Shown one piece after another: positions 7,991-8,151 of a stretch of DNA of 24,814 bases; within the stretch, counting starts at the first letter, position 1; every line of letters begins with the position of its first letter. Source of the stretch: Candidatus Jordarchaeum sp. LHC_1308 (GTDB lineage Archaea; Asgardarchaeota; Jordiarchaeia; Jordiarchaeales; Freyrarchaeaceae); the NCBI GenBank assembly GCA_019057675.1, contig JAHLWX010000025.1:1-24814 (forward strand). Reading direction: 5' to 3'. Position numbers and translations under genes: made by a program. The notes under the pieces were generated by a model. That model searched no databases. It saw nothing but the letters and a program-made list of their open reading frames with translations, and was not told where the DNA came from.

Positions 7991-8151
7991 TCGCTGGGCG
8001 CCATGACGTGAAAGTCAAGCCCACATGCGATTCGGCGAGTACTGCTGTGCGGGAGCCAGCGGGAAAACCGAATACTGGCGCTACGGCGCCGGTCATAGCA
8101 TGTGGGGTCTACCCGTTCTCATGCCGAACACGGATTCATGGCGTCCAGCGA
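7991..8151 (+). rRNA. circularly permuted 5S rRNA gene; precursor includes a 16-bp leader/trailer stem; predicted mature circle is 8013-8134
   Basis: 8013-8081 (AGUCAAGCCCACAUGCGAUUCGGCGAGUACUGCUGUGCGGGAGCCAGCGGGAAAACCGAAUACUGGCGC) corresponds to the 3' part of archaeal 5S. 8086-8134 (GCGCCGGUCAUAGCAUGUGGGGUCUACCCGUUCUCAUGCCGAACACGGA) corresponds to the 5' part. All five helices form: I 8074-8081/8086-8093, II 8098-8106/8020-8028, III 8113-8116/8130-8133, V 8030-8035/8068-8073, IV 8042-8047/8057-8062. Confidence 0.85.

What the first reader, a model, noticed from the sequence alone, without database searches (positions are those of the whole stretch)
8074..8093. The natural 5S termini (helix I) are sealed by a UACG tetraloop
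ACUGGCGC-UACG-GCGCCGGU forms an 8-bp helix I capped by a UNCG-class tetraloop, exactly where a normal 5S has its free 5' and 3' ends. This is what one would design for an engineered circular permutation. It argues that the permutation is a selected, functional arrangement and not an assembly artefact. Helix I is also 1-2 bp shorter than in typical archaeal 5S.
Basis: seen in the sequence. Interest (0 to 1): 0.6.

Follow-up and report, generated by a model that had tools for sequence, protein, structure and literature searches.

The report
Capped helix of permuted 5S rRNA
The hairpin is real: it seals the place where a normal 5S ribosomal RNA has its two ends, in a 5S gene whose halves are encoded in swapped order; the same layout occurs in most Asgard archaea sampled, and flanking splice signals predict that the RNA is cut out and joined, probably into a closed ring.

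Summary
Observation confirmed. Window 8074-8093 is ACUGGCGC-UACG-GCGCCGGU, an 8-bp stem (one U-G) with a C(UACG)G tetraloop. It lies between the 3' two-thirds (8013-8081) and the 5' third (8086-8134) of a circularly permuted 5S rRNA gene.

An 8-bp hairpin alone is no rarer than chance in this window. However, it is the only UNCG-capped one and the most stable 20-mer. Helix I covaries across 29 distinct relatives.

The organism is a Jordarchaeales (Asgard) MAG with no canonical 5S. In 151 Asgard genomes sampled, about 88 carry the permuted gene and 48 a canonical one, never both convincingly. Among 90 distinct permuted genes the cap is UNCG in 55, and helix I is 7-8 bp in 70.

The flanks form a bulge-helix-bulge motif. 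Applying the splicing-endonuclease cut rule and then joining the ends restores the canonical helix III junction in nearly all lineages. For this window it predicts a 122-nt product.

This scan has already noted permuted Asgard 5S genes in at least 53 other genomes. I found no paper describing them.

The parts
7962..7969 (+). TATA-like box UUUAUAUU (preceded by A-rich BRE-like GGGAAAAGC), about 21 nt before the processing stem; a promoter for a stand-alone transcript
   Evidence: Sequence. TTTATAT(T) is kept at a similar distance upstream in the Jord-, Freya-, Odin- and Baldr-type loci, but is not evident upstream of the Atabey-type loci. Function inferred.
7991..8006 (+). 5' strand of the 16-bp outer (processing) helix
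   Evidence: All 16 positions pair with 8136-8151. Outer helix: 13 modelled pairs, all with changes on both sides across relatives.
8007..8010 (+). CGUG, 5' strand of the 4-bp central helix of the bulge-helix-bulge motif
   Evidence: Pairs with CACG 8129-8132.
8011..8013 (+). 5' bulge AAA; predicted cut between 8012 and 8013
   Evidence: Geometry rule for the archaeal splicing endonuclease (cut after the 2nd bulge nucleotide), applied. The cut itself is inferred.
8013..8081 (+). 3' two-thirds of 5S rRNA: 3' side of helix III base/loop B, helix II 3' strand, helix V, loop E, helix IV, loop D, helix I 3' strand
   Evidence: Sub-threshold RF00001 hit of 18.6 bits; colinear alignment with canonical Asgard 5S; covariation.
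8074..8081 (+). Helix I, strand that is the 3' end in a normal 5S (ACUGGCGC)
8082..8085 (+). UACG tetraloop cap joining the native 3' and 5' ends
   Evidence: UACG is kept in all four genomes of the genus.
8086..8093 (+). Helix I, strand that is the 5' end in a normal 5S (GCGCCGGU)
8086..8134 (+). 5' third of 5S rRNA: helix I 5' strand, loop A (CAUAG), helix II 5' strand, loop B, helix III hairpin with loop C
   Evidence: Sub-threshold RF00001 hit of 19.4 bits.
8129..8132 (+). CACG, 3' strand of the central 4-bp helix (overlaps the helix III 3' strand ACGG)
8133..8135 (+). 3' bulge GAU; predicted cut between 8134 and 8135
   Evidence: Joining A8134 to A8013 gives ...ACACGGA-AGUCAAG..., the canonical CGG-AA-GU-YAAG spacing.
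8136..8151 (+). 3' strand of the outer helix
8156..8167 (+). Two U4 runs (8156-8159, 8164-8167), a likely archaeal terminator just after the stem
   Evidence: Sequence only. Inferred.

Best explanation
The hairpin is the closed end of helix I of a genuine, circularly permuted 5S rRNA gene of a Jordarchaeales (Asgard) archaeon.

Proposed pathway:
1. The gene is transcribed on its own from a TATA box (7962-7969). The primary transcript runs roughly from 7990 to 8160.
2. Leader and trailer pair into a 16-bp helix. This presents a bulge-helix-bulge motif: CGUG/CACG between bulges AAA and GAU.
3. The tRNA-splicing endonuclease (EndA) cuts after the second nucleotide of each bulge, at 8012|8013 and 8134|8135.
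4. RtcB joins A8134 to A8013. That rebuilds the normal helix III / loop B junction.

The product has 122 nt. Because helix I is sealed by the C(UACG)G tetraloop, the product has no free ends and is a covalent circle. I think the cap most likely stays in the ribosome-bound RNA as a compact, very stable closure. Helix I is 1-2 bp shorter than usual, so helix plus loop fill about the space of a normal open helix I.

Shown: the permuted order, its conservation and covariation, the motif geometry, and the presence of EndA. Inferred: cutting, joining and retention of the cap.
For: Permuted order:
- There are two half-hits to RF00001 in swapped order.
- The rotated sequence is colinear with canonical Asgard 5S, with no indel at the predicted joint.
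- A circular fold gives the three-arm 5S shape.

Only 5S in the genome:
- The window's genome has no canonical 5S.
- Canonical and permuted genes are mutually exclusive by family across 151 genomes.

Structure under selection:
- 92.8% of cells are paired, against 57% in shuffles and 35-42% in slid controls.
- 48 of 51 pairs have double changes. Helix I is 98% paired.
- A MAFFT-only alignment gives the same picture.

Cap:
- UNCG in 55 of 90 distinct genes, and 4-nt loops in 74 of 90.
- Closing pairs and stems differ between families.
- Helix I is 7-8 bp in 70 of 90.

Bulge-helix-bulge motif:
- The cut-and-join rule gives the canonical 4-nt spacer automatically in 22 of 29 lineages. Seven of the eight remaining rows follow the rule when read by eye; the eighth (f24) was not resolved.
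- Two different motif flavours (CGUG|AAA with CACG|GAN, and CYGG|AAG with NCGG|AAA) give the same joint.

Enzymes: EndA is present in the window's genome. RtcB is present in 5 of 5 close relatives.

Precedents:
- The permuted SRP RNA of Thermoproteus is cut by EndA and stays circular and functional (PMC4731332).
- E. coli ribosomes work with 5S whose native ends are joined by a tetraloop; those ends face the solvent at least 50 A from the nearest accessible 23S site (PMC7283268).
Against: There is no RNA-level evidence.

RtcB was not found in the window's own MAG, which is 84% complete.

The central helix CGUG/CACG competes with helix III (CCGU/ACGG shares ACG), so the precursor must refold.

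Twelve of 90 genes have an 11-13 bp helix I and one has a 51-nt cap hairpin, so any space constraint on the cap is loose.

Archaeal circular 16S precursors, and 23S precursors in some lineages, are re-opened. Permuted tRNAs are re-opened at the old ends, so re-opening of the cap has precedent.

An earlier checked note of this scan priced 'the closed ring is the ribosome's 5S' at 35/100.
Confidence: 0.58

Rival explanations
1. The cap is a transient linker. The transcript is cut and joined at the bulge-helix-bulge motif as above. The circle is then only an intermediate: a nuclease opens or removes the UACG loop and regenerates normal helix I termini. The ribosome then holds an ordinary linear 5S with a slightly short helix I.
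For: This is how permuted tRNA genes of Cyanidioschyzon merolae are expressed (Soma 2007, as cited in PMC4267664). Archaeal circular pre-16S, and in some lineages pre-23S, are re-linearised (PMC12918454). Caps vary in some lineages: triloops, 11-13 bp stems and a 51-nt insert.
Against: A disposable linker should drift in length and sequence. Instead 74 of 90 caps are exactly 4 nt and 55 are UNCG, a fold that is compact and a poor nuclease target. No conserved single-stranded spacer or known processing signal is present. Helix I is shortened by 1-2 bp, as expected if the loop is kept. The Thermoproteus SRP RNA stays circular.
Confidence: 0.22
2. A linear permuted 5S without joining. The ends stay in helix III, either as an unsealed nick after EndA cutting or with the 16-bp leader/trailer stem kept as an extra arm. 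The capped helix I is permanent.
For: Brown-algal mitochondrial 5S is permuted in the final, linear product (PMC4267664). RtcB was not found in the window's own MAG.
Against: Two different motif registers, plus a second breakpoint in loop C in other genomes, all give the exact canonical sequence after cut and join. That points to selection on the joined product. EndA products (2',3'-cyclic phosphate and 5'-OH, held side by side) are the natural RtcB substrate by established knowledge. RtcB is present in every close relative. The outer helix sequence is free to vary, as expected for a discarded part.
Confidence: 0.15
3. Artefact or dead gene: a mis-assembly, or a rearranged 5S pseudogene, with the real 5S gene missing from an incomplete MAG.
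For: The MAG is only 84% complete in 120 contigs, and rRNA genes often fail to bin.
Against: The same arrangement is found in about 88 genomes, including closed chromosomes that also lack a canonical 5S. Compensatory changes occur in every helix. Promoter-like and terminator-like signals are in place. Wu et al. 2022 could not predict any 5S gene in two closed Heimdallarchaeum genomes (PMC8813620). Two single-contig genomes of matching size in my sample carry two permuted copies each.
Confidence: 0.02

Closest known systems
Circularly permuted SRP RNA genes of Thermoproteus tenax / T. uzoniensis (Plagens et al. 2015, PMC4731332)
   Same: A universal structured RNA is encoded with swapped halves. 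The new termini lie in a bulge-helix-bulge motif cut by the tRNA-splicing endonuclease. The ends are ligated to restore the functional fold. The gene is invisible to standard covariance models.
   Different: It is a different RNA (SRP, not ribosomal) in one genus of Thermoproteota. Circularity and protein binding were shown experimentally there. Here the gene is 5S rRNA, found across most classes of a whole phylum, with no RNA data.
Engineered cp5S rRNA of E. coli (Huang et al. 2020, PMC7283268)
   Same: The native 5S ends were linked with a tetraloop and the molecule opened elsewhere. The ribosomes are active and the cells viable. The native ends lie on the solvent side, far from 23S.
   Different: It is man-made, bacterial and fused into 23S at loop C or D. 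It is not circular and involves no splice-type processing.
Permuted mitochondrial 5S rRNA of brown algae and other stramenopiles (Valach et al. 2014, PMC4267664; Rfam mtPerm-5S)
   Same: Helix I is replaced by a closed hairpin, and ordinary 5S models miss the gene.
   Different: The ends sit at the three-way junction, the RNA stays linear and permuted, there is no bulge-helix-bulge motif and no re-joining, and it is organellar.
Permuted tRNA genes of Cyanidioschyzon merolae (Soma et al. 2007, cited in PMC4267664)
   Same: The 3' half is encoded before the 5' half, and expression goes through a circular RNA intermediate.
   Different: The linker between the old ends is cut out to give a normal linear tRNA. 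The organism is a eukaryote.
Circular or permuted 23S rRNA in archaea (PMC7758197, PMC12918454) and trace circular 5S species in Sulfolobus and Pyrococcus (cited in bioRxiv 10.64898/2026.03.23.713588)
   Same: A bulge-helix-bulge motif with EndA and ligase acts on ribosomal RNA, and circular rRNA can sit in ribosomes.
   Different: Those genes are colinear and the permutation arises at the RNA level. PMC12918454 states that 5S is not processed this way in the cultured species studied. The trace circular 5S forms come from canonical genes without a bulge-helix-bulge motif.

Membership tests
5S rRNA (Rfam RF00001) | Score at or above the gathering cut-off (38 bits) on the genomic sequence | tested here: not met
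   There are two half-hits of 19.4 and 18.6 bits. This is expected for a permuted gene: the model cannot span the swapped order.
5S rRNA (Rfam RF00001) | All five helices and the conserved loops (CAUAG loop A, loop C CCGAAC, loop E AGUA/GAA) in a three-way junction | tested here: met
   The rotated sequence aligns end to end with seven canonical Asgard 5S genes at 55-65% identity, with no gap at the joint. The circular fold gives the three arms. There is covariation in all helices. Scoring the rotated sequence with cmscan was not possible with these tools.
5S rRNA (Rfam RF00001) | Free 5' and 3' ends at the tip of helix I | tested here: not met
   At the gene level the tip is closed by UACG. 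The state in the mature RNA is unknown.
Bulge-helix-bulge (hBHBh') substrate of archaeal splicing endonuclease | A 4-bp central helix flanked by two 3-nt bulges on opposite strands, each 3' of its central strand | tested here: met
   CGUG(8007-8010)/CACG(8129-8132) with bulges AAA 8011-8013 and GAU 8133-8135.
Bulge-helix-bulge (hBHBh') substrate of archaeal splicing endonuclease | Flanking helices h and h' | tested here: inconclusive
   The outer helix is strong (16 bp). The inner helix is only the 2-bp GU/AC stack continuing into 5S helix II/III. The central helix also competes with helix III. Relaxed motifs are accepted by some endonuclease types (established knowledge).
Bulge-helix-bulge (hBHBh') substrate of archaeal splicing endonuclease | Endonuclease and RtcB ligase encoded by the organism | tested here: inconclusive
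   EndA (PF01974) is present at 79.7 bits. RtcB (PF01139) is absent from the 84%-complete MAG but present in 5 of 5 relatives at about 600 bits.
Bulge-helix-bulge (hBHBh') substrate of archaeal splicing endonuclease | Actual cleavage at the bulges and ligation of the ends | not testable with these tools
Indirect support: the cut-and-join rule restores the canonical joint across lineages.
UNCG tetraloop (cUNCGg) | U at position 1, C at 3, G at 4, closed by a C-G pair | tested here: met
   C8081-[U A C G]-G8086. It is the most stable 20-mer hairpin in the window.
Permuted, circularised archaeal non-coding RNA genes (Thermoproteus SRP RNA type) | Swapped gene order, with the termini in a bulge-helix-bulge motif whose joining restores the canonical fold | tested here: met
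Permuted, circularised archaeal non-coding RNA genes (Thermoproteus SRP RNA type) | A circular mature RNA detected | not testable with these tools
   No RNA data were available. A scan of JGI metagenome contigs for the joined form gave 0 hits, which is uninformative if those contigs are DNA assemblies, as I assume.

The most novel reading that the evidence does not exclude
In most Asgard archaea, including lineages close to eukaryotes, the 5S rRNA that sits in the ribosome is a covalently closed circle of about 120 nt. Helix I is permanently sealed by a UNCG-type tetraloop. The circle is made from a permuted gene by the tRNA-splicing machinery. 5S rRNA would then be the first universally conserved ribosomal RNA with no ends at all in a whole phylum, and its maturation would depend on EndA and RtcB.
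Probability: 0.5. Interest if true: 0.9.

Novelty: new variant of a known kind. Interest (0 to 1): 0.75.

Why it matters
5S rRNA is treated as essentially constant and 'easily identified' in archaeal genomes. One Asgard rRNA study (PMC7594248) even left it out of its LSU size comparison as 'essentially constant'.

A permuted, splice-dependent and probably endless 5S in most Asgard classes would:
- explain why 5S could not be predicted in closed Heimdallarchaeum genomes (PMC8813620), and why many Asgard MAGs would lack the 5S that genome-quality standards (MIMAG, from my own knowledge) require;
- tie ribosome biogenesis to the tRNA-splicing enzymes;
- add a clean phylogenetic character (permuted versus canonical) inside the group from which eukaryotes arose;
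- show that nature arrived at the same design (native ends joined by a tetraloop) that ribosome engineers used.

The cap is the piece that decides between a circular and a linear mature RNA, so it is the right place to aim an experiment.

Tried and rejected
2. Scan of genome contigs with an order-specific pattern. Twenty-seven of 47 hits were false positives: 26 bacterial and one Methanomethylicia. All were ordinary 5S genes with a chance GTACT in the preceding 23S end or spacer, and were rejected after reading them.
3. Scan of JGI metagenome contigs for the joined form plus cap gave 0 hits. This shows no DNA copy of the joined form there and says nothing about RNA.
4. RtcB was not found in the window's own MAG. 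I read this as incompleteness, because all relatives have it.
5. The ORFs overlapping the locus (7972-9150 on the + strand, 7890-8096 on the - strand) have no Pfam match, so a coding explanation is rejected.
6. The sigma-70 promoter and intrinsic-terminator scan found nothing. That is irrelevant for an archaeon, so I read the TATA box and U runs by eye instead.
7. Literature: eight searches found no paper on a permuted or circular archaeal 5S gene.
9. My automatic outer-helix finder failed or mis-set the helix in 8 of 30 rows: short or interrupted outer helices, mis-set anchors, the nested Atabey motif, and f24, where no anchor was found at all. Seven of these I resolved by eye; f24 was left unresolved.

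Full report
**What is there**

Window 8074-8093 reads ACUGGCGC-UACG-GCGCCGGU. It has eight pairs, one of them U-G, and a C(UACG)G tetraloop.

Hairpins of 8 bp with a 4-nt loop are no more frequent in the window than in shuffles (23 against 18.8 +/- 4.1). This is the only UNCG-capped one (0.27 expected) and the most stable 20-mer in 24.8 kb, at -14.9 kcal/mol. The stem alone is therefore not remarkable. Its position and conservation are.

**Context**

Rfam finds no 5S above threshold in the window. At a permissive threshold two half-matches appear side by side: 7996-8084 (the 3' part, 18.6 bits) and 8085-8174 (the 5' part, 19.4 bits).

Read directly, 8013-8081 carries AAGUCAAGCC, the helix II 3' strand, helix V, loop E, helix IV and the helix I 3' strand. 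After the cap, 8086-8134 carries the helix I 5' strand, CAUAG, the helix II 5' strand and the helix III hairpin with loop C.

Rotating the two parts gives a 118-nt sequence. It aligns colinearly with seven canonical Asgard 5S genes at 55-65% identity, with no gap at the joint. The canonical termini fall 1-2 nt outside the capped stem.

The genome is a MAG of 1.9 Mb, 84% complete. It has no other 5S. ORFs overlapping the locus have no family match.

**Who has it**

BLAST and an order-specific pattern scan found the same arrangement in named records. These are Jordarchaeia/Jordarchaeales (QC4 and JZ-1, 90-96% identical to the window), Freyarchaeia (closed CP147778), Atabeyarchaeia (closed CP147779 and CP147780), Odinarchaeia, Baldrarchaeia, LC30, Asgardarchaeum abyssi and Helarchaeota. 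The bacterial hits of that scan are ordinary 5S genes and were discarded.

A covariance model of the permuted form (R1) matched 99 of 151 sampled Asgard genomes, mostly over its full length.
- After removing weak partial hits that overlap canonical genes, about 88 genomes carry the permuted gene.
- RF00001 passes its cut-off in 49. One of these is a read-through of tandem permuted units.
- The two states separate cleanly by family. Canonical: f7 26/26, f12 17/19. Permuted: f5 14/14, f9 23/25, f21 7/7, and others.

Two single-contig genomes of 3,081,793 and 3,326,783 bp match the sizes of the closed Heimdallarchaeum genomes. Their authors wrote that 5S genes 'could not be predicted' (PMC8813620). 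In my sample, each of the two genomes has two permuted copies. The identification by size is an inference.

**The cap across lineages**

In 90 distinct permuted genes:
- The cap is UUCG in 37, UGCG in 9, UACG in 8 and UCCG in 1, so UNCG in 55.
- CUCG or CACG occur in 5. Four-nucleotide loops occur in 74.
- Helix I has 7-8 bp in 70, 9 bp in 5, 11-13 bp in 12, and one carries a large insert.

Closing pairs and stem sequences differ between families, so the loop type is not simply inherited.

On a model-fitted alignment of 29 distinct sequences, helix I is 98% paired and 7 of its 8 pairs change on both sides. The whole structure is 92.8% paired, against 57% in shuffles and 35-42% when partners are slid. 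A MAFFT-only alignment gave the same picture.

Canonical Asgard 5S has 9 nt before CAUAG. The window has 8. A 7-8 bp stem plus tetraloop fills about the space of the normal 9-10 bp open helix.

**How it can work**

Leader 7991-8006 and trailer 8136-8151 pair perfectly over 16 bp. Next to that helix, CGUG (8007-8010) pairs with CACG (8129-8132). Bulges AAA (8011-8013) and GAU (8133-8135) lie 3' of each central strand. This is the geometry of the archaeal splicing-endonuclease substrate.

Cutting after the second bulge nucleotide and joining A8134 to A8013 gives ...ACACGGA-AGUCAAGCC.... That is exactly the canonical CGG-AA-GU-YAAG spacing.

I applied the same rule to 29 lineages:
- It gave the canonical 4-nt spacer automatically in 22.
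- Of the eight remaining rows, seven conform when read by eye (interrupted outer helices, mis-set anchors, nested motifs); the eighth (f24) gave no anchor and was not resolved.
- Two different registers give the same joint: CGUG|AAA with CACG|GAN, and CYGG|AAG with NCGG|AAA.
- In two genomes of another family the breakpoint lies in loop C instead. A motif there again restores the canonical sequence.

Selection therefore acts on the joined product.

EndA is encoded in this genome. RtcB was not found in it but is present in all five close relatives tested. A TATA-like box (7962-7969) and two U4 runs (8156-8167) bracket the stem, which fits a stand-alone transcript. A circular fold of the predicted 122-mer gives the three-arm 5S structure.

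**What remains inferred**

A scan of JGI metagenome contigs for the joined form gave nothing.

Cutting and joining are therefore inferred from geometry, conservation and precedent. The precedent is the Thermoproteus SRP RNA, PMC4731332. Whether the cap stays closed is the weakest step.

For retention: the minimal, very stable and conserved loop; the shortened helix; the solvent-exposed position of the native ends; and a working engineered 5S with tetraloop-joined ends (PMC7283268).

Against retention: the precedents for re-opening (permuted tRNAs, circular rRNA precursors), and the looser caps in some lineages.

My odds:
- Real functional permuted gene: 0.97.
- Cut and joined: about 0.8.
- Ring stays closed in the ribosome: about 0.5 overall.

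**Known or new**

Permuted non-coding RNA genes resolved by this machinery are known for SRP RNA and tRNA. Permuted but linear 5S is known in algal mitochondria (PMC4267664). Circular or permuted 23S is known in archaea (PMC7758197, PMC12918454).

Eight literature searches found nothing on a permuted archaeal 5S gene. PMC12918454 states that 5S is not processed by circularisation in the cultured species studied.

This scan has noted the same thing in at least 53 other genomes.

Noticed in passing
L115 (G017), L121 (G037), L159, L161, L157: Some permuted 5S genes also carry a roughly 30-nt insert in the 3' strand of helix III. It reads as a textbook bulge-helix-bulge intron, e.g. L115: UCCG|AAA|AACCAAC...GUGGUU|CGGG|AAC|CCGG. 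Removing it by the same cut rule restores CCAUCCGAA-CCCGGAA. As far as I know, an intron in a 5S rRNA gene has not been described.
   Followed up: partly
L122 (G054) and L168 (G131), family f9 genus g10: Here the permutation breakpoint is in loop C, not at the AA|GU site. The gene starts ...GCG|CCGG|AAC|CAUCCGAACCCGGAAGUUAAAC and ends ...ACCCGG|UCA|CGC. Cut and join gives ACCCGGUC-CCAUCCGAACCCGG. The site coincides with the intron site seen in a genus-mate (L115), which hints that breakpoints can move between bulge-helix-bulge sites.
   Followed up: partly
L086 and L090 (Atabeyarchaeia closed genomes): The 5' flank holds a duplicated CGUGAGA with a 22-nt hairpin between the copies. After a first cut and join this would form a second, intron-like bulge-helix-bulge motif that again yields CACGGA-AGUUAAG. 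The related LC30-like locus (L083) lacks the insert.
   Followed up: partly
L108, L123, L120 (family f5, Heimdall group by inference): Second 5S copies have a conserved extra hairpin (e.g. AUCUGGA..UUCCAGAU) inserted on the 5' strand between the long outer helix and the central 4-bp helix. The processing stem is therefore a three-way junction.
   Followed up: no
L113 (G024, f14); G110 contigs C77, C90, C106, C132: Permuted 5S units occur in tandem or in several copies at contig ends. Read-through across two units mimics a canonical 5S and scrapes past the Rfam cut-off (38.4 bits).
   Followed up: partly
L025 (DATKTP010000169.1, labelled Candidatus Deferrimicrobium sp.): A contig in a bacterial MAG carries a permuted 5S very like that of Helarchaeota Hel_GB_A (L042). 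This is probably a binning contaminant.
   Followed up: no
L163 (G137), L122 and L160: Expansion-like inserts occur inside the permuted 5S: a 31-nt branched insert in the helix I cap (L163), and 30-40-nt hairpin inserts in helix IV (L122, L160).
   Followed up: no
window 8185-8212: A tandem 13-nt direct repeat (AGUGGUAAUUUUA / AGUGGUAACUUUA) lies just downstream of the 5S terminator, as another first-stage note says. GGUAAC-like words also appear downstream in genus-mates.
   Followed up: no
window 6509-7771 (- strand): The upstream neighbour is a thiolase (Thiolase_N and Thiolase_C). It is divergently oriented from the 5S gene, so the 5S unit is not part of an rRNA operon.
   Followed up: partly
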